Below are positions 2,369 through 8,257 of a stretch of 8,257 nucleotides of DNA, piece by piece. This DNA is from a virus: UHGV virus genome UHGV-0211679; one strand, 5' to 3'. How positions within the stretch are numbered: position 1 is the first letter of the stretch; each line of letters starts with the position of its first letter. The position numbers and the translations under genes are program-made. Under the pieces are notes generated by a model, which did not search any database, was not told the origin of the DNA, and was given only the letters and a program-made list of their open reading frames with translations.

Positions 2369-2412
2369 TGGATAGCGGGTAGGTGCGTGAGCCCTGCTCG
2401 CTATCCATCAAA
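2364..2412 (+). other. Long DNA hairpin directly after gene IV (candidate packaging-signal or intergenic origin hairpin)
   Basis: Inverted repeat TTTGATGGATAGCG (2364-2377) / CGCTATCCATCAAA (2399-2412): 14 perfect bp, extendable by about 6 more with G-T wobbles. Overlaps the gene IV stop. In Ff phages the packaging-signal hairpin lies immediately after gene IV. The structure is seen; the role is inferred. Confidence 0.5.
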
Positions 2413-2437
2413 TGGACATTATTGATTGGGGTAACTA

Positions 2438-2746
2438 ATGGATTCTTATGGGATTTTATCTGCTCTGGCAGAACGAACGATTACAGCGGAAGAAGCAAAA
2501 ACAATGACACTTGCAGCCAGAAGTTCTTCGGCTCAGGTAAATGAAGCATCACTTGCTCTGTTACTGATTGATAATACTCTGGATGCGATCAAAGCAGCTG
2601 CCAGTGAAGGGAAAGGATACACTTTACTTCCTTCTTATGAGATTTCTTTAAAAGCCATTGATTTAGCAGAAGAATTTTTAAGGAAACAATGCGGCTATGT
2701 TATTGATAACCAGAATGGCGTAAGGACGGTCTATTGGTTTATATGA
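2438..2746 (+). CDS. Hypothetical protein, 102 aa, no recognisable family
   Basis: ORF ATG 2438 to TGA 2744-2746; weak SD-like GGGG 7 nt upstream. Mildly acidic, predicted mostly helical, no TM segment. Flanked by two long hairpins, so it could alternatively be non-coding intergenic sequence. Confidence 0.4.
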   Translation: MDSYGILSALAERTITAEEAKTMTLAARSSSAQVNEASLALLLIDNTLDAIKAAASEGKGYTLLPSYEISLKAIDLAEEFLRKQCGYVIDNQNGVRTVYWFI

Positions 2747-2747
2747 T

Positions 2748-2792
2748 AACCCCGGACAGTGACAAAACTTGCTTTTGTTAGTGTCCGGGGTT
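2748..2792 (+). other. Long near-perfect DNA hairpin (candidate origin or structured intergenic element)
   Basis: AACCCCGGACAGTGACAAAA (2748-2767) pairs with TTTTGTTAGTGTCCGGGGTT (2773-2792): about 19 bp stem with one mismatch and one G-T pair, 5-nt loop. A T7 run sits about 20 nt downstream (2813-2819), too far for a canonical intrinsic terminator. Confidence 0.5.
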
Positions 2793-2863
2793 GGCCAAGC
2801 CGAACAATTCTGTTTTTTTAGCGTTATTGCTGATTCGGCGCGGCAGCATTACGAGGAGATAAA

Positions 2864-3097
2864 ATGCAATTTTTCACATCCAGCGATACTGTAATGTTAT
2901 GTGCGAAGACCTGCGATCGCTGTGGTCGCCATGCGAAGACGGTGGTAGATGACATTGAGTTCAATGAGTTTCTGTCTGTTAATCACTTAGCTGGATACGG
3001 TTCAATTTTTGGTGACAGTAATCGCTTAAAACTGGATTTATGCCAACATTGCCTGAAAGACGTCCTGGGCCAGTGGATTACGGTCTGTGACCAATGA
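2864..3097 (+). CDS. Small zinc-ribbon-like protein, 77 aa (CxxC...CxxC)
   Basis: ATG 2864 preceded by a strong SD GAGGAG (2853-2858) with 5-nt spacer; stop TGA 3095-3097. Two CxxC pairs (CDRC and CQHC) about 43 residues apart suggest a Zn-binding ribbon. No family assignment possible by eye. Confidence 0.6.
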   Translation: MQFFTSSDTVMLCAKTCDRCGRHAKTVVDDIEFNEFLSVNHLAGYGSIFGDSNRLKLDLCQHCLKDVLGQWITVCDQ

Positions 3098-3135
3098 CGG
3101 CACCGGTAACGCCAGTTCCCACCATCCTTACCATT

Positions 3136-3168
3136 GGTGCGCATAATGTACGACTCGTTATGTTGAAA
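3136..3168 (+). other. dif-like XerC/XerD recombination site (candidate attP of an Xer-exploiting integrative phage)
   Basis: GGTGCGCATAA (3136-3146) is an 11/11 match to the XerC arm of E. coli dif (GGTGCGCATAA-TGTATA-TTATGTTAAAT, recalled). Then TGTACGACTCG (11-nt central region beginning TGTA), then TTATGTTGAAA (3158-3168), 9/11 to the XerD arm. Central region is longer than the canonical 6 bp. Confidence 0.6.
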
Positions 3169-3202
3169 AGGCCGCTGCGAAAATAGAATCCCGCAGCGGC
3201 CT
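3169..3202. terminator. Hairpin between convergent genes, putative bidirectional intrinsic terminator
   Basis: AGGCCGCTGCG (3169-3179) / CGCAGCGGCCT (3192-3202): 11-bp GC-rich stem, 12-nt loop. Followed by CTTTA on + and TTTCAA on the minus strand, so the U-tracts are short. Lies between the end of the 2864-3097 ORF and the end of the minus-strand operon. Confidence 0.5.
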
Positions 3203-3232
3203 CTTTAGCATAACGTCATTGTGCGAACCAAT

Positions 3233-3937
3233 TCATAATGCTGCGGGAGCCACGTAATAGACAATCACAAATACAGCTAATGCTCCACCTGCTCTTACCC
3301 AGTTTGATATTTTGACTTCTATAAACCCGGGTATAAATGAGACTACCCCAGCAACTGCTGCTGAAAGAATTATTCGAAAGAAAGTGTATTGAAAGTTCGT
3401 TGGATTAGGTATAAATATTGCGATTATTATAAAAAGAATAACAAGTAAAATGCCAAAGCTAAATGCCGCTATTCTCTCGTGTGCTTTTGTCAATTTTTCT
3501 TTTCCTTTATTGTCAAATCCATATACTGGCATATCTTCATTAACGAAAAGATTCCTTATTTCTTTTGCAGAACGTTTGTCATGGGCTTTTACTATCCTTT
3601 GCATTGAAGCAAAAGCAGTGGAGCTTGGTTTAATACTATTATCATTCATTACCTCTCTATATTTTTTGTAATGAGCTAAGATAAGGTGAAGAACATCAAT
3701 GCATGTTTCTGCAAGCCATTGATTCCATTGAGTATTATTTAATTCATCTACTGTTCTGTTATGTGCAGCGCAGTGTTCTAAATAGCCGAAAAAACTGTCT
3801 CCACATGAATTCACGGTATCAAAATCACATTTACCAGATAGGTAACACTCTAATGACTCAGTATATTTTTCATATAAACGCTCAATTTCTTTTTTTTGAT
3901 TATCAATGATACCGTGAACATCCATATCTGATTTCAC
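3233..3937 (-). CDS. Membrane protein, about 230 aa: Cys-rich soluble N-domain plus C-terminal transmembrane helices; function unknown
   Basis: Minus-strand ORF, stop TGA (rc of 3233-3235). First codon is GTG at 3937-3935, overlapping the upstream TAG (TAGTG); the first ATG is at 3925-3923. N-terminal about 155 aa hydrophilic with C-x5-C-x7-C-x10-C (LECYLSGKCDFDTVNSCGDSFFGYLEHC). C-terminus has hydrophobic stretches FSFGILLVILFIIIAIFIP, FFRIILSAAVAGVVSFIPGFI and GGALAVFVIVYYVAPAAL. Visibly AT-rich compared with the phage core. Confidence 0.6.
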   Translation of the reverse strand: MKSDMDVHGIIDNQKKEIERLYEKYTESLECYLSGKCDFDTVNSCGDSFFGYLEHCAAHNRTVDELNNTQWNQWLAETCIDVLHLILAHYKKYREVMNDNSIKPSSTAFASMQRIVKAHDKRSAKEIRNLFVNEDMPVYGFDNKGKEKLTKAHERIAAFSFGILLVILFIIIAIFIPNPTNFQYTFFRIILSAAVAGVVSFIPGFIEVKISNWVRAGGALAVFVIVYYVAPAAL

Positions 3938-4212
3938 TATCTTTTTTGTTGAGTGTTATTTGACTGGGATTGAATTTTTGCCAATAGCGAACTTGCTTTC
4001 GATGTATTCAATCCATTACAAATCATTCTTGTAATCGGTTTTTTGTAAATTCGATGAACGATATTTTCAACTTCAGTGATGCTTTCATTGCCACTGAGTT
4101 TTTTTATCTCATTGAACATCTCCTCCAATTGTTCATTTGTTGGATGCCATTTGATTATATCTAATTCTTCCTCTAATGCTTTTTTAAAAAGGAAAACCTG
4201 AAAAGATAACAT
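3937..4212 (-). CDS. Hypothetical small protein, 91 aa, with C-terminal tail paralogous to the upstream ORF
   Basis: ATG at 4212-4210 preceded by AAGGAAAG with 4-nt spacer; stop TAG (rc of 3937-3939). C-terminal 26 aa NGLNTSKASSLLAKIQSQSNNTQQKR parallels the tail of ORF 4214-4510. Confidence 0.55.
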   Translation of the reverse strand: MLSFQVFLFKKALEEELDIIKWHPTNEQLEEMFNEIKKLSGNESITEVENIVHRIYKKPITRMICNGLNTSKASSLLAKIQSQSNNTQQKR

Positions 4213-4213
4213 A

Positions 4214-4510
4214 TTACTTTCCTTGTGTTGGTTTAGTAGTGGATTGTTGAGCTTTTTCTAAAAGCCTTTTTGCTTTAGATGTGTCCAAACCATCTTGGGC
4301 AAAGCCTTGTTGCTTATCATTCTGTTTTTGTTCACTTTTTTTTGGCGTATTCATCAGTATATACTTTGACTCGTTTTGTTTATCTCGATGACTTACTTTT
4401 TGTTTAAGTTTTGCACAAACTAGAACGTGCAGTGTTGGTAATACTGCACGTTTGTACCATTCGTGGTACTTAATCCTTTTGTTTGGCAGACATGAGATCT
4501 TCTGCTGCAT
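4214..4510 (-). CDS. Hypothetical small K/Q-rich protein (start uncertain), tail paralogous to ORF 3937-4212
   Basis: Stop TAA (rc of 4214-4216), 1 nt before the ATG of the next gene. The track start at 4528 is a TTG; the first ATG is at 4510-4508, and a later ATG at 4354-4352 would give a 46-aa product. None has a clear SD. C-terminal 26 aa DGLDTSKAKRLLEKAQQSTTKPTQGK. Overlaps the end of the RHH gene if started at 4510. Confidence 0.3.
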   Translation of the reverse strand: MQQKISCLPNKRIKYHEWYKRAVLPTLHVLVCAKLKQKVSHRDKQNESKYILMNTPKKSEQKQNDKQQGFAQDGLDTSKAKRLLEKAQQSTTKPTQGK

Positions 4511-4652
4511 CTTTAGAGTAGTTATCAATCAGATAACCTAAAATCTCTGTCCATGTAATTGTTTTTCCTAGTTTTACACTGGCATTTATAGCCAGTCGTT
4601 CTAGTTTCATTTTTCTTTCTTCCGTCACGTTATAAGTCGTGCGCTTTGCCAT
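4470..4652 (-). CDS. Ribbon-helix-helix-like small DNA-binding protein, 60 aa (candidate phage repressor or antitoxin-type regulator)
   Basis: ATG at 4652-4650, stop TAA (rc of 4470-4472). MAKRTTYNVTEERKMKLERLAINASVKLGKTITWTEILGYLIDNYSKD fits an RHH pattern: short N-terminal beta-strand (TYNVT), helix, turn, helix. Divergent from gene II across a repeat-containing region. Confidence 0.55.
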   Translation of the reverse strand: MAKRTTYNVTEERKMKLERLAINASVKLGKTITWTEILGYLIDNYSKDAAEDLMSAKQKD

Positions 4653-4699
4653 TTTTTACGCTCGTTCAATGCAATATTTGAAGTGAGTATACATGCTCA

Positions 4700-4779
4700 T
4701 GAACTCATATCATCCAAGCCTCTTGAACTCACTAGCTCACTGATGTAATGTTAAAACACTAATGAACTACTGAACTCAT
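4700..4779. promoter_or_regulatory. Four direct TGAACT(C/A) repeats in the divergent control region (candidate operator or iteron array)
   Basis: TGAACTCAT at 4700-4708, TGAACTCAC at 4724-4732, TGAACTAC at 4763-4770, TGAACTCAT at 4771-4779. Located between the RHH gene start (4652, minus) and the gene II start (4822, plus). Confidence 0.45.
4723..4751 (+). promoter_or_regulatory. Candidate sigma70 promoter for gene II
   Basis: TTGAAC (4723-4728), 17-nt spacer, TAATGT (4746-4751). The -35 overlaps one TGAACT repeat. Pattern match by eye only. Confidence 0.3.
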
Positions 4780-4821
4780 GTGTTAGTAAGTCGTCATTTT
4801 TGCAATTTTGAGGATTTATTC

Positions 4822-5874
4822 GTGATCGATTGGCTTACCGGGATTTTCCCTTGCACACACAAACCGCTTCCGGCGGGGAGTGTTGTCAGCGTTGATGCTG
4901 ACGGTGCAATTGAGTGGGAAACCGTTAAGCGACTGACTGTTCGCGGCTCGCATGAAGCAACGATGAAAGTACGATCGATAGGATCTAATGGCGAAGGTAA
5001 AGCGACACATTTGTACATTGATGGTAATCCGTCCAAGTTTTTGCAGGGGCATTCTGTTGTTGGGTCGGATGATATACAAGGGCTCATGTTGACGGTCTAT
5101 GCCAGGATTTTATCCTTATTGAATATTCCTCATGATTTAGCGTCTTATAAAGCTGTTATAGCAGGTCAGTATAAAATTTCACGTGTTGACATTAATTACA
5201 TGTATTCATTATCTACGCTAGAAAATGTCAGATCATGGCTTTATGCCGCCGAATTTAAAGCTAAAACACGCCATGGTCGCGCATGTGGGAAAGGCGGTAC
5301 AGTTTATTTAGGTAAAAACTCCCGTCGATGGAGTCTGAAATTTTATTCAAAATATGATGAACACGTTTCGGGTAAAAAAGGGCACCAGATAGCCGAAGAT
5401 TTTGTACGAGCCGGGTTACTGGACTGGACGAAAGATAAATTACGTATTGAATTAACATTAAGAACAACTGAGCTTATTGATTTAAATTTAACGCTTGGCG
5501 CTAACTGGAATATGAAAACACCACGTCAATTATTCTCTGAATATGTAGGGAGAATAGAAATGAATCAGAATGCTATTTTAAGTGATGAAAAAATAACGAA
5601 ACTGCCAAGAAAAATACAGTCAACTTATTTACTTTGGAAACAAGGGGCTAACATGAAAGAAATGTTACCTCATAACACTTTTTATCGCCATAGAAGAGAA
5701 TTGCTTTCGTTCGGTATCGATATTAATTTCTATTGTGATTCACCAGACTCTAATAACGTTGTTCCGCTAATAAGAACGCTGGAAGCCAAGCCAGTGGAAA
5801 TCCCCTTATGGATTTATGAGAAAGGTTTTATTTTCGATTACAACCGTATTTCGCACGCCAGTAGCTGGCATTAA
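4822..5874 (+). CDS. II: Replication initiation protein pII (gene II, rolling-circle nickase)
   Basis: GTG start at 4822 preceded by GAGGA (4810-4814) with 7-nt spacer; product begins (M)IDWL..., compare M13 pII MIDML.... Blocks NPSKFLQGHSVVGSDD and NNVVPLIR match recalled M13 pII (SPAKVLQGHNVFGTTD, NNVVPLVR). Stop TAA 5872-5874. An upstream in-frame GTG at 4780 lacks an SD. Confidence 0.85.
   Translation: MIDWLTGIFPCTHKPLPAGSVVSVDADGAIEWETVKRLTVRGSHEATMKVRSIGSNGEGKATHLYIDGNPSKFLQGHSVVGSDDIQGLMLTVYARILSLLNIPHDLASYKAVIAGQYKISRVDINYMYSLSTLENVRSWLYAAEFKAKTRHGRACGKGGTVYLGKNSRRWSLKFYSKYDEHVSGKKGHQIAEDFVRAGLLDWTKDKLRIELTLRTTELIDLNLTLGANWNMKTPRQLFSEYVGRIEMNQNAILSDEKITKLPRKIQSTYLLWKQGANMKEMLPHNTFYRHRRELLSFGIDINFYCDSPDSNNVVPLIRTLEAKPVEIPLWIYEKGFIFDYNRISHASSWH
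5560..5874 (+). CDS. X: pX (gene X), in-frame internal start within gene II
   Basis: ATG at 5560 in the gene II frame with SD GGGAG (5548-5552); product MNQNAILSDEK..., 104 aa, equal to the C-terminal part of pII, as in Ff phages (M13 pX starts MNIYDDSAVL). Confidence 0.6.
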   Translation: MNQNAILSDEKITKLPRKIQSTYLLWKQGANMKEMLPHNTFYRHRRELLSFGIDINFYCDSPDSNNVVPLIRTLEAKPVEIPLWIYEKGFIFDYNRISHASSWH

Positions 5875-5885
5875 AGGAAAGTAAT

Positions 5886-6203
5886 ATGTCTAATTATGGT
5901 CTTTTCGTTAAGGGTAAAATGTTGGGAGCCCGCCAACGTAATAAAGTTAATGGTCAGGGCTATTATAATGAAATTGGTATTGGCCTTGAAATACCTGATG
6001 GTTTTGGTGGTACAAAGCAGGATCAAATTATTATTCGAGTTTCTCAGACTCTCGTTAACGCAGGTCTAATGAACCAGGCGAATGCTTTCATTGGGAAATT
6101 AGTTCAAATTCCTGTCTATGTCCGTGCGTGGTCAATGGAGGGTAGGGAAGGTGTAACTTATAATGTTTCTTCCGATGGTGGCATCGCAGAGATCAAAGGT
6201 TAA
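5886..6203 (+). CDS. Gene-V-position protein, 105 aa (putative ssDNA-binding protein by synteny; not recognisably Ff gVp-like)
   Basis: ATG 5886 preceded by AAGGAAAG; stop TAA 6201-6203. Sits between gene II/X and gene VII, where Ff phages encode gVp. The sequence (MSNYGLFVKGKMLGARQRN...) does not resemble M13 or IKe gVp as I recall them. Confidence 0.55.
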   Translation: MSNYGLFVKGKMLGARQRNKVNGQGYYNEIGIGLEIPDGFGGTKQDQIIIRVSQTLVNAGLMNQANAFIGKLVQIPVYVRAWSMEGREGVTYNVSSDGGIAEIKG

Positions 6204-6205
6204 AT

Positions 6206-6292
6206 ATGGACGATGTTATTCAAATTTTGATAGCGTCTGGCATCGTTATTTCTTTTGGCCTCGGCGCGATTACTGCGGGGGTCTTTCGTTAA
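6206..6292 (+). CDS. VII: Minor coat protein pVII (gene VII), 28 aa
   Basis: ATG 6206 three nt after the gene V stop; product MDDVIQILIASGIVISFGLGAITAGVFR is hydrophobic, similar in size and character to M13 pVII. Stop TAA 6290-6292 overlaps the gene IX ATG (TAATG). Confidence 0.6.
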   Translation: MDDVIQILIASGIVISFGLGAITAGVFR

Positions 6293-6387
6293 TGTATATC
6301 GTTTATTTCTTCGGGGCTTATACCTTTGGTTTTGCCCTTTTCTATGCGGTCGGTTCATTTAAATCATTTTCTGACCGATTAATGTAA
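6292..6387 (+). CDS. IX: Minor coat protein pIX (gene IX), 31 aa
   Basis: ATG 6292 in the TAATG overlap; product MYIVYFFGAYTFGFALFYAVGSFKSFSDRLM is a hydrophobic peptide resembling M13 pIX (MSVLVYSFASFVLGW...). Stop TAA 6385-6387. The longer track ORF from 6163 is an N-terminal over-extension. Confidence 0.65.
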   Translation: MYIVYFFGAYTFGFALFYAVGSFKSFSDRLM

Positions 6388-6406
6388 CCTTAATGGAGTT
6401 ATTCCT

Positions 6407-6649
6407 ATGAAAATTCTGTCTACTGTTAAATATAAAGTTGCTCTGGCTTCAACTGCGCTTTTTGTTTCTGCAAGTTCTTTTGCGGCTGAAGGCGCTACAG
6501 GTGGTACTGATTATGCAGGTCAGGCAATGGATGCTTTGTTGACTCAGGCAAATGATCTCATTGGTAAAGTATGGCCTGTTGTTGTGGCTGTGGTTGGCGC
6601 TGGGCTTGCCATTCGTATTTTCAAAAAATTCTCTTCAAAAGCGGTTTGA
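6407..6649 (+). CDS. VIII: Major coat protein pVIII precursor (gene VIII)
   Basis: ATG 6407 with GGAG 8 nt upstream; 80 aa. Signal peptide ending SSFA, then mature AEGATGG...[25 protein letters not shown]. The C-terminal [11 protein letters not shown] and WPVV match my recollection of IKe pVIII more closely than M13 (FKKFTSKAS). Stop TGA 6647-6649. Confidence 0.93.
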
Positions 6650-6658
6650 ATTTCACTC

Positions 6659-6683
6659 AGGGGCACTCGTTGCCCCTTTATTA
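6659..6683 (+). terminator. Rho-independent terminator after gene VIII
   Basis: AGGGGCA (6659-6665), loop CTCGT, TGCCCCT (6671-6677), then TTTATT. Position matches the strong central terminator downstream of gene VIII in Ff phages. Confidence 0.75.
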
Positions 6684-6695
6684 AAGCGGGTTACT

Positions 6696-7916
6696 ATGAA
6701 AAGGAAAATATTAATTCTTTCCGCTGTCCTCATTTCTCCTTTTTCACATGCTGAGTCATGGGAAAGCATTACTAAATCCACTTATCAAAGCTCTGCCTAC
6801 GCTGAAAGTAAGCAAATAACCAATCAGGATGGCTCTAAGTCAACGGTTTACTATATTGATGCTGCTATGCAGGCCTCCGCTTGTCAGGGTGCTAAATCCA
6901 GTGCTCAGAGTGTATTTACTCAGGTTAAACCAACTTATGAGGGTATCTGGCCTGATTCTGAATTCCGTCTTGTTTTTACTGGTGATTGTACTTACAGCGA
7001 TTCACCAGGGCAGAAGGATAAATATTGGTCTTTAACGGCTTATATTGTTGGTGATATTCAGCGTTCTGTTCCTGATGAAAAACCTACTGACCCGACACCA
7101 GAAGAAATTTGTGAAGCGAAGCCGCCAGAAGAAGGTGTATTTAATAATGTTGATTCATATGATGGTGGTCGTTATATCTACTATAACGGCTGTGAATATG
7201 AGGCTACTGGTGTCATTGTTTGTCAGGGTGATGGTACTGTTTGCGCTGCAACATGGAAGCCTACAGGTACTGTAGCTGACCCCTCTGATAAACCCTCAAC
7301 CCCCCAAAATGGTGGTGGTGAGTCTGGCGGTGGTGAGTCTGGCGGTGGTGAGTCCGGTGGCGGTAGTTCTGGCGGTGGCTTTAGTGGTTCCAGTCTTTCT
7401 AAAGGTGATATTCAGTCTGCTATCGAAGGTGCTTCACCCAAAATAGCCAGCGATATTCATGATAAATTAACGGAGAAAGACACTTCATCAGATGATAAAA
7501 AAAATGCCGATGAACAAACTAGGAATAATATAAATCGTCTTGACGATTCCATTAACAATCTTACGCGGGGGGCTGGCCGTTTTGCTGACCCTTCAGGTGG
7601 TGATTCTCGTTATGGAAAGGGCGACTCTGAATTAGATGGCGCTTCTACTTTGGCTGATTCTGAATTGGGAATTGAAAAGGATTCTCACGGTGCTTTATGG
7701 GAAGCATTTTTAAATAAAGGTGCTATGCTGCCTAATTTACCCAATGGTAACGGCTGCTCTGATTTTATTATTTTTCCCGGAGAGGTTTATCAGATTGATA
7801 TTGGTTGCGATAAATTACTGACTATTAAAGATGTTCTTTCATGGGTTTTTTATTGCCTTACGTTCTGGTATGTCTTTACTTCTTTAACTTCATTGCTTCG
7901 CAAAGGGGGTGAGTGA
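6696..7916 (+). CDS. III: Adsorption protein pIII (gene III) with Gly-rich linker
   Basis: ATG 6696 gives signal peptide [19 protein letters not shown]. Gly/Ser-rich linker [23 protein letters not shown] and a hydrophobic C-terminal anchor ([14 protein letters not shown]) are typical of pIII. Stop TGA 7914-7916 overlaps the gene VI ATG (TGATG). The track start at 6552 overlaps gene VIII and is rejected. Confidence 0.9.
7311..7379 (+). repeat. Tandem 15-bp repeats encoding the pIII (GGGES)n linker
   Basis: GGTGGTGAGTCTGGC at 7314-7328 and 7329-7343, with diverged copies at 7344-7358 and 7359-7373. Confidence 0.85.
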
Positions 7917-8257
7917 TGCCTTTATTATTAGGTATTCCTGCATTGTTGCGTTTTCTTATTGGTCTTGTTCCTTTGTTTATTGGCTATGTGGCGAGTTTTT
8001 TAGCTCGACTTGCTACCAGAACAGGATTAATCGCCTTTGCATTGGTCGCATTAATTACAACAACTGTTACGCTTTTAATGCAGTACCTTGCTGAGGTCAT
8101 GTATAACGGTTTACCTGCTGATTTCTCCCATTTAATGGCGTCTGTATTGCCTGACCATTTTCAGGCGTGTGTTAACGTTATTATGGTTACTCGTATCAGT
8201 GTTTTTGTTTTCGATTTAAAACAAAAATTTCTTGATTATGCAAACAGGGTGATTTAA
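7916..8257 (+). CDS. VI: Minor coat protein pVI (gene VI)
   Basis: ATG 7916 (a GTG at 7913 is also in frame); product [17 protein letters not shown]... matches recalled M13 pVI (MPVLLGIPLLLRF...), including a C-terminal FDLKQK versus FDVKQK. Stop TAA 8255-8257 is the last codon of the window and abuts the gene I ATG at position 1 if the sequence is circular. Confidence 0.88.
   Translation: MPLLLGIPALLRFLIGLVPLFIGYVASFLARLATRTGLIAFALVALITTTVTLLMQYLAEVMYNGLPADFSHLMASVLPDHFQACVNVIMVTRISVFVFDLKQKFLDYANRVI

What the first reader, a model, noticed from the sequence alone, without database searches (positions are those of the whole stretch)
3233..4652. Minus-strand operon: RHH-like regulator, two small tail-paralogous proteins, Cys-rich membrane protein (candidate exclusion, abortive-infection or conversion module)
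Four co-oriented ORFs run antisense to all phage genes, with tight junctions (TAA-n-ATG with an embedded SD, and a TAGTG overlap). The first encodes an RHH-like DNA-binding protein. The last encodes a protein with a Cys-rich N-domain and two to three C-terminal TM helices. A lysogen-expressed membrane protein under phage repressor control fits superinfection exclusion, an abortive-infection effector or a toxin. I cannot assign any of these to a known family by eye, so it may be undescribed.
Basis: inference. Interest (0 to 1): 0.85.

Follow-up and report, generated by a model that had tools for sequence, protein, structure and literature searches.

The report
Candidate phage-defence cassette in filamentous prophage
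The antisense genes of this E. coli filamentous prophage are a repressor-type regulator followed by a swappable three-gene cassette (two tiny proteins sharing a conserved 12-residue motif, plus a membrane protein) that turns up in phage-defence hotspots across many bacteria, matches no described family, and is therefore a good but untested candidate for a new anti-phage system.

Summary
The four co-oriented minus-strand ORFs are real, but they are two units. The window is a complete CUS-1/YpfPhi-type, dif-integrating inovirus of extraintestinal E. coli.

ORF A (4470-4652, 60 aa) sits where related phages carry an HTH/CI repressor. It has TGAGTTCA operator-like repeats and a conserved hairpin pair. 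This is backbone. Its RHH fold is plausible but unproven.

ORFs B, C and D lie in 3240-4400. This is a discrete cargo cassette, replaced in sister phages by a Fic/Doc toxin or other genes.
- B (46 aa) is little more than the motif DGLDTSKAKRLL, which is under strong purifying selection.
- C (91 aa) is a small alpha/beta protein ending in the same motif.
- D (230 aa) is a cytoplasmic five-helix bundle plus a highly conserved 3-TM module. It is not Cys-rich.

Homologous cassettes, with 1-4 motif-bearing small genes followed by a D homologue, occur in:
- the P2 fun(Z) slot;
- an element carrying a P4-alpha-type primase;
- a second inovirus;
- a prophage end;
- chromosomal islands beside Gabija, PifA, Olokun and PDC-S73.

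Nothing matches Pfam, NCBIfam, PADLOC, PDB or BFVD.

Best reading (about 0.5): a lysogen-expressed, abortive-infection-type defence system with a membrane effector. The main rival is a toxin-antitoxin or addiction module. No function has been tested.

The parts
4653..4779 (-). Divergent control region between ORF A and gene II. It holds three operator-like sites, each a tandem pair of 8-bp units (TGAGTTCA-GTAGTTCA 4778-4763; TGAGCTAG-TGAGTTCA 4739-4724; TGAGTTCA-TGAGCATG 4707-4692). A sigma-70-like promoter for ORF A (ATGATA 4713-4708, 16-nt spacer, TATACT 4691-4686) has a spacer filled by the third site.
   Evidence: There are 4 exact TGAGTTCA copies in the window, and 3 of them fall within 80 nt on the minus strand. 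About 0.25 exact copies are expected in 2 x 8257 nt (own arithmetic). Promoter scan. Whether these sites act as operators is inferred.
4470..4652 (-). ORF A, 60 aa. Candidate immunity-type repressor, RHH-like by pattern only. Part of the phage backbone, not of the cargo.
   Evidence: The identical protein is kept in sister phages that carry different cargo. Related phages have HTH_3/CI-type repressors at the same position. PHROG 2503 is 'unknown function'. No Pfam, NCBIfam or PDB hit. hhalign against Arc/Mnt/CopG gives probability 1.9%.
4425..4469 (-). Conserved hairpin pair directly after the ORF A stop codon: GTACCA-cgaa-TGGTAC (4469-4454) and ACGTGCAGT-attaccaac-ACTGCACGT (4451-4425), followed by TCTAGTTTGT. 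It marks the border between backbone and cargo.
   Evidence: As RNA, dG is -22.7 kcal/mol with z -4.0. Hairpin 1 shows two compensatory pair changes (GTCTCA/TGAGAC) in phages with an HTH repressor, and hairpin 2 is identical there. The element is kept at 83-88% identity in about 100 E. coli genomes that have a different repressor and cargo. Its function is inferred: a terminator or attenuator, or an ssDNA signal.
4214..4354 (-). ORF B, 46 aa. A 'short' partner made of K/Q/N-rich low-complexity sequence around the motif FAQDGLDTSKAKRLLE.
   Evidence: In the 16-codon core, the comparison with L010 shows 7 synonymous and 0 non-synonymous codon differences, and with Proteus 7 and 1. Homologous short genes lie in L010 (two copies), L012 and Proteus L004. 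RefSeq calls the 141-nt CDS.
3937..4212 (-). ORF C, 91 aa. A 'long' partner: a small alpha/beta protein with the W-x-P-[TS]-x-x-Q-L motif and a C-terminal G-L-N-T-S-K-A-x-x-LL helix.
3509..3925 (-). ORF D residues 1-139: a cytoplasmic five-helix bundle with invariant W67, A72, E73, C75, L79, H85, P100, Q109, R110, P133, G136 and F137. Presumed to be the regulatory or partner-binding domain.
3233..3508 (-). ORF D residues 140-230 plus the stop codon: a conserved 3-TM module (AAFSFG..PNPTxFQY..PGFIEV..RAGGALAVF). Predicted topology is N-terminus in, C-terminus out. Presumed effector.
   Evidence: Hydropathy and K/R distribution. AF2 helices. The module is 50-60% identical in proteins whose other domains are unrelated. 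A profile search finds 2922 representative clusters at E<=1e-3. There is no Pfam model for it.
3156..3215 (.). Long GC-rich hairpin 18 nt downstream of the D stop codon. It is a likely bidirectional terminator and part of the folded attP, with inverted XerD-like TTATG arms.
   Evidence: dG is -39.4 kcal/mol with z -6.0. It is conserved at 94% in L011, on the far side of the swapped cargo.
3136..3149 (+). dif-like XerC arm GGTGCGCATAATGT. The prophage junction (attL/attR) maps to 3133/3134.
   Evidence: Read directly from the sequence. Prophage copies begin at window position 3134. The prophage is tandemly integrated next to hipA. The E. coli dif sequence is from my own knowledge.
3240..4400 (-). 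Extent of the swappable cargo cassette (B + C + D with its own 5' leader).
   Evidence: blastn against the sister phage L011 gives 98% identity over 4401-7378 and 94% over 3134-3239, with only a 46-nt trace in between. This exact segment is present in 22 of 5426 complete E. coli genomes. The A + gene II backbone is present in 48.

Best explanation
The region holds a backbone immunity gene followed by a mobile three-gene accessory cassette. The cassette most likely acts as a lysogen-expressed anti-phage system of the abortive-infection type with a membrane effector.

Proposed working:
1. ORF A, the phage's repressor-type regulator, is transcribed leftward from a promoter overlapped by TGAGTTCA repeats.
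2. Transcription that passes the conserved hairpin pair, or starts from a weak cassette promoter, expresses B, C and D in the lysogen.
3. D inserts in the inner membrane with its five-helix bundle in the cytoplasm.
4. The small cytoplasmic proteins C (a full domain) and B (the motif only) dock on that bundle through their shared G-L-D/N-T-S-x-A-x-x-LL helix and hold the 3-TM module inactive.
5. A signal from an infecting phage, sensed by the C-type domain or by loss of the small proteins, frees or activates D.
6. The conserved 3-TM module of D oligomerises and compromises the membrane, which stops the infection.

Shown here: the gene anatomy, the cassette borders, mobility across unrelated elements, the strict small-gene/D linkage, purifying selection on the motif, the defence-hotspot and defence-island contexts, and the absence of any known family.

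Inferred: expression in lysogens, physical binding of B and C to D, the direction of regulation (inhibition versus activation), pore or depolarising activity, and the anti-phage phenotype itself.
For: - Cassette borders. Identical backbone phages differ exactly in 3240-4400. Alternative cargo at that slot is a Fic/Doc toxin, a 140-aa TM protein plus a 37%-identical version of the cassette, or other hypotheticals.
- Same cassette in classical lysogen-expressed or defence slots:
  - A P2-like phage carries it between tail-fibre assembly gene G and sheath gene FI, where canonical P2 carries fun(Z), the T5-exclusion gene.
  - It lies next to a P4-alpha-type primase-helicase on an IMG/VR contig.
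  - It lies in a second inovirus with a different gene II and an HTH repressor.
  - It lies next to a phage integrase in Microbulbifer.
- Chromosomal copies sit in defence islands. GajA and GajB lie 96 nt upstream in Pseudomonas L022, PifA/KAP NTPase in L020, OloA in L016, PDC-S73/nSTAND3 in Proteus L004, and a patatin gene in L023.
- Strict linkage. All 21 cassettes in 20 distinct loci have 1-4 small motif-bearing genes immediately upstream of D, often overlapping it. The two small types are fused in P. inefficax.
- The motif-only peptide is under purifying selection.
- The 3-TM module is shuffled onto TIR, CHAT, DUF4062 and other domains. One member is PADLOC candidate PDC-S60.
- Prior literature holds that TM proteins in such cassettes act as suicide effectors (PMC9122126). 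Unannotated genes in P4 hotspots mostly proved to be defence systems when tested, 6 of 8 (bioRxiv 10.64898/2026.02.27.708500).
Against: - There is no experimental phenotype for any member.
- No PADLOC model matches. This shows the cassette is not a described system, but it also means there is no positive link to defence beyond context.
- The folds are uninformative: generic helical bundles for D, nothing for C.
- The 3-TM module is also fused to domains typical of the cell envelope (CarboxypepD_reg, PEGA, SPOR, BACON). It may therefore be an anchor rather than a pore.
- The slot in sister phages holds a Fic/Doc toxin, which fits an addiction role as well as a defence role.
- The hairpin pair may terminate the ORF A transcript, and no strong promoter or SD precedes B, so expression in lysogens is unproven.
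- YpfPhi lysogens show only partial immunity to self-superinfection, and that phage lacks this cassette (PMC4266046), so nothing links it to a published phenotype.
Confidence: 0.5

Rival explanations
1. Toxin-antitoxin or addiction module. D is a membrane toxin, and the upstream small proteins are labile antitoxins that neutralise it by direct binding. The cassette stabilises an element that is easily lost (CUS-1/YpfPhi-type phages are unstable episomes or dif-integrated tandems), with or without a secondary anti-phage effect.
For: - The gene order is small gene(s) first, translationally coupled to a larger downstream gene.
- The same slot in sister phages, including a 7,938-bp Salmonella episome, carries a Fic/Doc 'death-on-curing' toxin.
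- YpfPhi is readily lost as an episome (PMC4266046).
- Pf inoviruses carry the PfiAT TA at an equivalent accessory position (titles and abstracts).
- A motif-only peptide (B) makes sense as a minimal neutraliser.
Against: - Many chromosomal copies sit in defence islands with no element to stabilise.
- The copy number and diversity of the small genes (1-4, two subtypes, fused forms) are unusual for antitoxins.
- The small proteins have no recognisable DNA-binding domain for autoregulation.
- No toxicity data exist.
- TA and abortive infection are not mutually exclusive, so this rival overlaps the best explanation.
Confidence: 0.22
2. Superinfection exclusion at the envelope. D sits in the inner membrane and blocks DNA entry or receptor function (TolQRA or a pilus) for incoming filamentous or other phages without killing the cell. 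B and C act as cytoplasmic cofactors.
For:
- The homologous cassette occupies the slot of fun(Z), the T5-exclusion gene of P2.
- Inoviruses are known to encode exclusion proteins such as PfsE (PMC8764522).
Against: - The cassette occurs in hosts and elements with no link to filamentous phages (Methylobacter, Desulfobulbus, Sulfurovum, Pseudomonas islands).
- The cytoplasmic bundle and the obligatory cytoplasmic partners suggest signalling rather than passive blocking.
- Only very short loops face the periplasm.
Confidence: 0.12
3. Lysogenic conversion or host-fitness factor unrelated to phage conflict. This could be a membrane protein that alters envelope physiology or virulence of ExPEC K1/ST95-type strains.
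For: - CUS-1 and YpfPhi are associated with high-virulence clones and give modest in vivo fitness gains (PMC4266046).
- The E. coli genomes that carry the cassette are almost all human isolates, several of them urinary.
Against: - YpfPhi has the fitness effect but carries unrelated genes (YPO2271/2272) at this slot.
- Homologous cassettes are common in environmental bacteria and in defence islands.
- The published CUS-1 virulence mutation (puvA) lies in a virion-protein gene, not here.
Confidence: 0.08
4. Core phage function. The four ORFs are needed for CUS-1 replication, assembly or integration (for example as Xer cofactors) rather than being cargo.
For: They lie beside attP and the replication-control region.
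Against: - Sister phages with an identical regulator and 98% nucleotide identity across the A + gene II backbone (gene II product is a different RefSeq protein, WP_001734927 versus WP_000568119) lack B-C-D entirely. One of them is a circular 7,938-bp episome.
- YpfPhi also lacks them.
- There is no similarity to any inovirus core protein.
Confidence: 0.03

Closest known systems
Phage lambda cI-rexA-rexB (Rex exclusion system)
   Same: Lysogen-side genes lie downstream of, and co-oriented with, the immunity repressor. The logic is cytoplasmic partner protein(s) plus a small polytopic inner-membrane protein thought to depolarise the cell on infection. Details of Rex are from my own knowledge. 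Rex-like 'RexA + 4TM' cassettes are listed in P4 hotspots in PMC9122126.
   Different: - No sequence or profile similarity (PADLOC and Pfam negative).
- The partners here are 46-107 aa and multi-copy with a shared motif, not a 279-aa RexA.
- The membrane protein carries its own 140-aa cytoplasmic bundle and has 3 TM helices, not 4.
- A conserved hairpin pair separates the repressor gene from the cassette.
P2 lysogenic-conversion genes fun(Z), tin and old, and the P2/P4 defence hotspots (Rousset et al. 2022, PMC9122126)
   Same: A homologous two-gene version (85 aa + 233 aa) occupies exactly the fun(Z) position between G and FI in a P2-like phage, antisense to the late genes. Another version lies next to a P4-alpha-type primase. 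The cassettes swap in the way those hotspots do.
   Different: - It is unrelated in sequence to Fun(Z), whose gene is 1587 nt, to Tin and to Old.
- It is not the '3HP' system of that paper, whose proteins are about 335, 366 and 225 aa and unrelated.
- It is not any of Crouga, Bandua, Aernus, Toga, Reve or Hailong.
CUS-1 orf1/orf1a and YpfPhi YPO2271/YPO2272 (attL-adjacent ORFs of unknown function)
   Same: This is the same locus. The window matches dif-integrated tandem prophages beside hipA at 100% over the segment tested (2369-4780). The review describes two attL-side ORFs in CUS-1 that replace YPO2271/2272 and have 'no homologs'.
   Different: - The literature treats them as orphan ORFs.
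- Here they turn out to be a three-gene cassette. The 46-aa gene was not counted in that description.
- There are dozens of homologues across Proteobacteria, and the modular border is defined.
- The YpfPhi genes at this slot are unrelated.
Accessory modules of Pf inoviruses (PfiAT toxin-antitoxin, KKP kinase-kinase-phosphatase defence module, PfsE exclusion protein)
   Same: These are non-core genes at the ends of filamentous prophages that modulate superinfection, defence or prophage maintenance (PMC12328805, PMC11341870, PMC8764522).
   Different: The protein families and mechanisms are different. None has the motif-bearing small proteins or the 3-TM module.
Ribbon-helix-helix repressors (Arc, Mnt, CopG, MetJ, omega)
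   Same: ORF A is 60 aa. Its N-terminus KRTTYNVTE alternates polar and hydrophobic residues like the CopG strand KRLTITLSE. The segment G-K-T-I-T between two predicted helices resembles the G-x-S/T turn. Its putative operators are tandem 8-bp direct repeats, as for MetJ and omega. The sequences and operator types of those proteins are from my own knowledge.
   Different: There is no statistically significant match. Pfam and NCBIfam give nothing, the PDB profile search gives nothing relevant, and hhalign probability is 1.9%. No structure prediction was run for ORF A.

Membership tests
CUS-1/YpfPhi-type dif-integrating inovirus (Xer-dependent integrative mobile element) | Inovirus core gene set in Ff order (gII, gV, gVII/IX, gVIII, gIII, gVI, gI/Zot, gIV secretin) | tested here: met
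   ORF map. RefSeq annotation of the identical prophage.
CUS-1/YpfPhi-type dif-integrating inovirus (Xer-dependent integrative mobile element) | Integration at chromosomal dif, often as tandem copies, with a dif-like attP and no integrase | tested here: met
   The prophage is a tandem pair next to hipBA. The junction is at 3133/3134, beside GGTGCGCATAATGT. No integrase ORF is present.
Ribbon-helix-helix (Arc/MetJ/CopG) DNA-binding superfamily (ORF A) | Significant sequence or profile match to RHH families | tested here: not met
   Pfam has 0 families at E<=1 and NCBIfam has 0. Neither phmmer nor the profile against PDB finds any RHH. hhalign against Arc/Mnt/CopG gives probability 1.9%.
Ribbon-helix-helix (Arc/MetJ/CopG) DNA-binding superfamily (ORF A) | Beta-strand, helix, G-x-S/T turn, helix topology in about 45 residues | tested here: inconclusive
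   The pattern is compatible by eye (KRTTYNVTE, then helix, then LGKTIT, then helix; alignment). No structure prediction was available for it.
Ribbon-helix-helix (Arc/MetJ/CopG) DNA-binding superfamily (ORF A) | Binds repeated operator half-sites overlapping its own promoter | not testable with these tools
   Candidate sites exist: three tandem TGAGTTCA pairs, one inside the -35/-10 spacer. Binding has not been tested.
Phage immunity repressor (functional class, ORF A) | Occupies the divergent position next to the replication gene and is exchangeable with other repressor types | tested here: met
   HTH_3/Phage_CI_repr proteins lie at the same position in related phages ([F11], 38, 105, 106). 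YPO2273 is described as RstR-like in YpfPhi.
Described anti-phage defence systems (PADLOC-DB v2.0.0, including Rex, PARIS, Rst systems and PDC candidates) | HMM match of any component | tested here: not met
   For A, B, C and D there is no hit better than E 0.0057 (Csx27, 15 bits). The 3HP proteins of Rousset 2022 are unrelated in size and sequence.
Anti-phage defence system (generic operational definition) | Enrichment next to known defence genes or in mobile-element defence hotspots | tested here: met
   The P2 fun(Z) slot. A P4-alpha-type element. Gabija, PifA, OloA and PDC-S73 neighbours. The sample is small and not statistically controlled.
Anti-phage defence system (generic operational definition) | Confers resistance to phage when expressed | not testable with these tools
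Type II toxin-antitoxin module | Small upstream gene coupled to a larger downstream gene, with strict co-occurrence | tested here: met
   All 21 of 21 cassettes have this arrangement.
Type II toxin-antitoxin module | The downstream product is toxic and is neutralised by a labile partner that also autoregulates through a DNA-binding domain | not testable with these tools
   No DNA-binding domain was detected in B or C. Toxicity is unknown.
Pfam/NCBIfam curated families (B, C, D and the 3-TM module) | Score above the curated cut-off | tested here: not met
   None of 144 diverse proteins carrying the 3-TM module hits a Pfam model that covers it.

The most novel reading that the evidence does not exclude
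B, C and D define a new, widespread family of three-component anti-phage systems in Proteobacteria. In this family a 12-residue helix motif (G-h-D-[NT]-S-x-x-x-x-LL), carried by one to four small paralogous proteins and in enterobacteria even by a motif-only micropeptide, gates a previously undescribed 3-TM membrane module. That module is itself reused in thousands of other proteins, including TIR and CHAT fusions. The 20-year-old orphan ORFs of the virulence-associated CUS-1 prophage would then be a defence system that a filamentous phage carries for its host.
Probability: 0.4. Interest if true: 0.75.

Novelty: new variant of a known kind. Interest (0 to 1): 0.62.

Why it matters
- Orphan ORFs explained. 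If the cassette is a defence or abortive-infection system, it gives a function to the 'orf1/orf1a' genes of CUS-1. The YpfPhi review explicitly calls the functions of the terminal ORFs of these phages a key open question.
- A new protein set. It would add an unrelated set of proteins to the catalogue of prophage-borne immunity.
- Cassette exchange across elements. It would show that small dif-integrating filamentous phages exchange the same cassettes as P2-like phages, P4-type elements and chromosomal defence islands.
- A tractable mechanism. The motif-only 46-aa peptide under purifying selection is a handle on how tiny proteins regulate membrane effectors.
- An unmodelled domain. The 3-TM module (about 2,900 clusters at 50% identity, no Pfam model) is a sizeable blind spot in domain annotation.
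- Annotation fixes. Some members of the small-protein family are mis-named 'S-(hydroxymethyl)glutathione dehydrogenase' in public records, and the 46-64-aa genes are often not called at all.

Tried and rejected
- Near-identity search of the whole window against GenBank phages. It found only about 190 nt of gene IV similarity to IKe and PEar. The phage is not in that collection; it was found in E. coli chromosomes instead.
- Pfam, PHROGs, PADLOC and NCBIfam on all ORFs. Only 'unknown function' PHROGs came back.
- Profile searches of the D, C and A families against PDB sequences. The results were designed repeat proteins and noise.
- BFVD Foldseek gave nothing. The AFDB50 library was not available.
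Probability 1.9%, so the test is inconclusive.
- Identity with the '3HP' P2 system of Rousset 2022. Rejected after reading the protein sequences.
- Identity with the 2026 P4 systems. Rejected.
- The 104-aa reading of ORF B (PHROG 6875 models a 98-aa form). Rejected, because the extension covers the conserved hairpin element and the end of ORF A, closes in L011, and is absent from homologues.
- 'Cys-rich metal-binding domain'. Rejected.
Degenerate DNA patterns for the motif recovered only the same phages.
- The Gonzalez 2002 CUS-1 paper could not be read.
- A fused-chain AF2 'complex' of B, C and D was considered. It was not run because the tool returns no coordinates or PAE, so contacts could not have been read.


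Full report
**What the window is.** The 8,257-nt window is a complete inovirus genome, linearised at the start of gene I. Gene I/Zot is at 1-1095, the gene IV secretin at 1010-2368, and gene II at 4780/4822-5874. Gene V is at 5886-6203, gene VIII at 6407-6649, gene III ends at 7916, and gene VI is at 7913-8257.
- It is not in the GenBank phage collection. The only similarity is about 190 nt of gene IV to IKe and Erwinia PEar phages.
- The segment 2369-4780 is 100% identical to chromosomal prophages in 12 complete E. coli genomes, almost all human isolates and several urinary.
- In strain 85.0412 the prophage is a head-to-tail tandem immediately downstream of hipBA, which is the dif region. It has no integrase.
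- The junction maps to window 3133/3134, next to GGTGCGCATAATGT (3136-3149), the XerC arm of dif (the dif sequence is from my own knowledge).
- This is the CUS-1/YpfPhi type of filamentous phage. The Derbise and Carniel review says the attL-adjacent segment of CUS-1 carries two ORFs (orf1, orf1a) that replace YPO2271/2272 of YpfPhi. [quoted passage not shown]

**Checking the observation.** Four co-oriented minus-strand ORFs exist, and RefSeq annotates the same four. They are A 4652..4470 (60 aa), B 4354..4214 (46 aa), C 4212..3937 (91 aa) and D 3925..3233 (230 aa).
- The B/C junction is TAA-t-ATG with AAGGAAAG upstream, as described.
- The TAGTG overlap at C/D is in the sequence, but homologues begin at the ATG 11 nt further on (MD[VI]HGII).
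- A and B are not tightly joined. A 115-nt spacer holds two perfect hairpins, at 4469-4454 and 4451-4425 (dG -22.7 kcal/mol, z -4.0).
- The 104-aa version of B overlaps ORF A and the hairpins. It closes after 43 codons in a sister phage. Homologues of B are 50-64 aa with their own ATG.
- The shared tail of B and C is real: 11/24 identical, E 2e-4.
- D has three C-terminal TM helices.
- D is not Cys-rich. It has 5 Cys in 230 residues, and only C75 is conserved in 28 homologues.

**Two units, not one.** blastn against a sister prophage (L011, also at dif/hipA) gives 98% identity over 4401-7378 and 94% over 3134-3239. In between there is only a 46-nt trace. The segment 3240-4400 therefore holds exactly B, C and D with a short leader, and it is a replaceable cargo.
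- Phages with the identical ORF A protein and a near-identical gene II region (98-99% nucleotide identity) carry other cargo in that slot. One is a Fic/Doc 'death-on-curing' toxin gene, in E. coli EC23 and in a circular 7,938-bp Salmonella episome.
- L011 carries a 140-aa multi-TM protein plus a 37%-identical version of the C+D pair.
- A relative with an HTH repressor carries two unrelated hypotheticals.
- Among 5,426 complete E. coli genomes, 48 carry the A + gene II backbone and 22 carry this cassette. All cassette copies are at least 99% identical and chromosomal.

**The backbone part.** ORF A lies where related phages have HTH_3/CI-type repressors (E. coli F11; L010; L030).
- The 127-nt region between A and gene II contains three of the window's four exact TGAGTTCA copies, all on the minus strand. 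About 0.25 are expected.
- Each copy is paired with a degenerate copy 8 nt away.
- The third pair fills the spacer of the only sigma-70-like promoter found for A, ATGATA-16-TATACT at 4713..4686. This looks like an autoregulated divergent switch.
- The RHH idea fits the pattern. KRTTYNVTE resembles the CopG strand, there is a G-K-T turn between helices, and the operators are tandem direct repeats as for MetJ and omega (those comparisons are from my own knowledge).
- The hairpin pair after the A stop codon is conserved in about 100 E. coli genomes whose phages have a different repressor and different cargo.
- Hairpin 1 shows two compensatory changes there (GTACCA/TGGTAC to GTCTCA/TGAGAC), and hairpin 2 is unchanged.
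- It is a functional element at the backbone/cargo border. It could be a terminator or attenuator of the repressor transcript, or an ssDNA signal such as a minus-strand origin or packaging signal.

**The cargo cassette: anatomy.**

D:
- AF2 with 28 homologues gives pLDDT 80.8. It shows a five-helix bundle over residues 3-129 whose 10-residue pLDDT block means are 90 or more except for a dip to 76-77 at residues 51-70. Three TM helices follow with lower confidence.
- The stretch before TM1 is K/R-rich. The loops are short, and the predicted topology is N-in, C-out.
- Invariant residues cluster on helix 3 (W67, A72, E73, C75, L79, H85), on helix 4 (Q109, R110) and in the LPxYGF segment just before the membrane.

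C:
- AF2 with 33 family members gives pLDDT 77.7 and a small alpha/beta fold (H2-17, E19-21, H26-37, H45-56, E61-62, H71-89).
- The conserved G-L-N-T-S-K-A-x-x-LL segment forms the loop and the N-terminus of the last helix.

B:
- B is low-complexity sequence around FAQDGLDTSKAKRLLE.
- Across the 16-codon core, the window and L010 differ at 7 codons, all synonymous. The window and Proteus differ at 7 synonymous codons and 1 non-synonymous codon.
- This tiny gene is therefore translated, and the motif is what is selected.

**The cassette elsewhere.** A search for D found 57 cluster representatives. Loci fetched from IMG/VR and from one genome per species added more.
- Full-length D homologues occur in Proteus, Pectobacterium, Aeromonas, Microbulbifer, many Pseudomonas, Paraburkholderia, Burkholderiaceae, Parazoarcus and Methylobacter. 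They also occur in Desulfobulbus, Sulfurovum and Terasakiella.
- In all 21 cassettes (20 distinct loci) with upstream sequence, D is preceded by one to four small genes, usually overlapping it or a few nt away. All encode members of one roughly 85-aa superfamily ending in G-[LIV]-D-[NT]-S-[DK]-x-x-x-LL-x-LA.
- Outside Enterobacterales there are typically two subtypes in fixed order. They are fused into one 175-aa protein in P. inefficax, whose locus also carries two complete cassettes in tandem.
- In Enterobacterales the first gene is reduced to the motif-only 'short' form (window B; L010 twice; L012; an uncalled ORF in Proteus).
- Several of these small genes are not called by annotation pipelines. 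Some are mis-named 'S-(hydroxymethyl)glutathione dehydrogenase'.

**Where the cassette sits.**
- In a P2-like phage (NC_070905), an 85-aa + 233-aa pair lies between the tail-fibre assembly gene and FI, antisense to the late genes. D is 28% identical over 96% of its length (E 1e-19), and C is 27% identical (E 8e-5). This is exactly where canonical P2 carries fun(Z), the lysogenic-conversion gene that blocks T5.
- On an IMG/VR contig, it follows a P4-alpha-type primase-helicase (Zn-ribbon, Toprim, D5_N, DUF5906).
- In a second, unrelated inovirus (different gene II, 163-aa HTH repressor), it again lies downstream of and co-oriented with the repressor, with four small genes.
- In Microbulbifer it is next to a phage integrase.
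- In chromosomes it lies beside recognised defence genes. These are GajA and GajB 96 nt upstream (E = 0), PifA/KAP NTPase (4e-80), OloA (1e-59), PDC-S73/nSTAND3 (5e-258) and a patatin phospholipase. Six of the ten large neighbours tested hit a PADLOC model.

**The 3-TM module.** The last roughly 85 residues of D are 50-60% identical to segments of proteins whose remaining domains are unrelated.
- A profile search of 1.84 billion representatives finds 2,922 clusters at E<=1e-3 and 1,800 at E<=1e-10. The module is at the N-terminus, the middle or the C-terminus.
- No Pfam model covers it. Among 144 diverse members the accompanying domains are mostly unknown. They include TIR_2, CHAT, DUF4062, FGE-sulfatase, DUF4019 and ankyrin. 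They also include envelope-type domains (CarboxypepD_reg, PEGA, SPOR, BACON).
- One member matches PADLOC candidate PDC-S60, and others match ThsB-like TIR or SAVED-CHAT models through their other domains.
- This is a reused membrane module linked at least in part to conflict systems. Whether it is a pore or an anchor is open.

**Comparison with what is known.** Nothing in Pfam, NCBIfam, PADLOC v2, PDB sequences, PDB folds or BFVD identifies A, B, C or D. PHROGs has all four as 'unknown function'.
- The cassette is not the three-hypothetical-protein '3HP' system from the P2 old/tin hotspot, whose proteins are about 335, 366 and 225 aa and unrelated.
- It is not any of the new P4 systems reported in 2026.
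- The closest analogue in logic and placement is lambda cI-rexA-rexB: lysogen-side genes after the repressor, with a cytoplasmic partner plus a small polytopic membrane protein.
- The closest analogue in genomic behaviour is the set of P2/P4 hotspot cassettes. In those, TM proteins are regarded as suicide effectors (PMC9122126), and most untested unknowns turned out to be defence systems.
- Inoviruses are already known to carry TA, defence and exclusion modules at their ends (PfiAT, KKP, PfsE).

**Mechanism and confidence.** I commit to a lysogen-expressed, abortive-infection-type defence cassette. In it the small cytoplasmic proteins engage the cytoplasmic bundle of D through the conserved helix motif and control the 3-TM module (confidence about 0.5).
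- The motif-only peptide favours the motif being a docking or holding element rather than an activator. That polarity is inferred, and it is the weakest step.
- The main rival is a membrane-toxin/antitoxin addiction module (about 0.22). The Fic/Doc alternative cargo and the instability of these phages support it, and the two readings overlap.
- Envelope-level superinfection exclusion (about 0.12) and a conversion or virulence role (about 0.08) are less consistent with the distribution in environmental bacteria and defence islands.
- A core phage role is excluded for B, C and D by their absence from otherwise identical phages.

**Verdict.**
- The locus itself was published as orphan ORFs.
- What is new here is the recognition of a widespread three-component cassette with a conserved micro-motif and an unmodelled 3-TM domain, sitting in defence contexts.
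- I rate it a new variant of a known kind (prophage-borne cassettes with a membrane effector), with interest 0.62. It is a well-supported, cheaply testable candidate, but so far without any phenotype.

Noticed in passing
window 4425-4469 (minus strand); L030 3490-3580; L029 3405-3565: Two adjacent perfect hairpins lie right after the regulator's stop codon. They are conserved in about 100 E. coli genomes whose inoviruses have a different (HTH) repressor and different cargo. Hairpin 1 shows two compensatory base-pair changes and hairpin 2 is invariant. The element could be the repressor terminator or attenuator, or an ssDNA signal (minus-strand origin or packaging signal).
   Followed up: partly
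window 3134-3239: The attP region holds the dif XerC arm GGTGCGCATAATGT (3136-3149) and a 60-nt hairpin (3156-3215, dG -39.4 kcal/mol, z -6) with inverted TTATG XerD-like arms. By elimination, this roughly 100-nt stretch must be what matched 639 E. coli genomes, including 479 places on plasmids, at 90-95% identity. Why it is so widespread on plasmids was not resolved.
   Followed up: partly
window 2438-2746 and 2864-3097 (+ strand): Two attR-side ORFs of unknown function (102 aa; 77 aa with CxxC...CxxC, zinc-ribbon-like) appear to be the YPO2280a/YPO2281 homologues. They occupy the position where CTXphi carries ctxAB. They are kept at 99.5% in the Salmonella episome that has the different (Fic/Doc) cargo on the other side. 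Only 'unknown function' PHROGs match them.
   Followed up: no
L029 2674-3408; L033 939-1673 (NZ_CP140410.1): Sister phages with the identical regulator and a near-identical gene II region (99% nucleotide identity) carry a lone Fic/Doc 'death-on-curing' toxin gene in the cargo slot, with no annotated antitoxin. One of them is a 7,938-bp circular 'plasmid' in Salmonella, which is probably the episomal replicative form of the phage.
   Followed up: partly
L011 5143-5565: In the CUS-1 variant L011, the short B-type gene is replaced by a 140-aa protein with several hydrophobic segments and no Pfam hit. It lies upstream of a diverged C+D pair whose D has an extra hydrophobic insertion (262 aa).
   Followed up: no
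L024 2300-6591 (Pseudomonas inefficax): Two complete cassettes lie in tandem. The first has three separate small genes. The second has the two small-protein subtypes fused into one 175-aa protein, which shows that the motif need not be C-terminal.
   Followed up: partly
L020, L022 and L023 (about 5845-7257): In several Pseudomonas the D homologue is 469-470 aa. It has a roughly 200-aa extension after the third TM helix, which would be periplasmic if the predicted topology holds. The function of the extension is unknown.
   Followed up: no
P0058, P0062, P0063 (homologues of window 3937-4212): Public records name some C-family proteins 'S-(hydroxymethyl)glutathione dehydrogenase'. This is an evident annotation error for a 91-aa protein. 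The 46-64-aa B-type genes, and some type-1 and type-2 small genes, are not called at all in several genomes (Proteus L004 7575-7727, Microbulbifer L005 7614-7892, Methylobacter L026 about 5735-5970).
   Followed up: partly
L027 1305-2058 (Terasakiella brassicae): The D homologue is split into two overlapping ORFs (98 aa + 157 aa) by a frameshift. This is either a pseudogene or a sequencing error.
   Followed up: no
window 6163-6387 and 10-nt-scale features of the backbone: RefSeq annotates an 87-nt 'tail virion protein G7P-2' gene just after gene V that the 30-aa ORF list does not show. The 74-aa ORF at 6163-6387 overlaps it. Small-gene annotation of the gVII/gIX region deserves a check.
   Followed up: no
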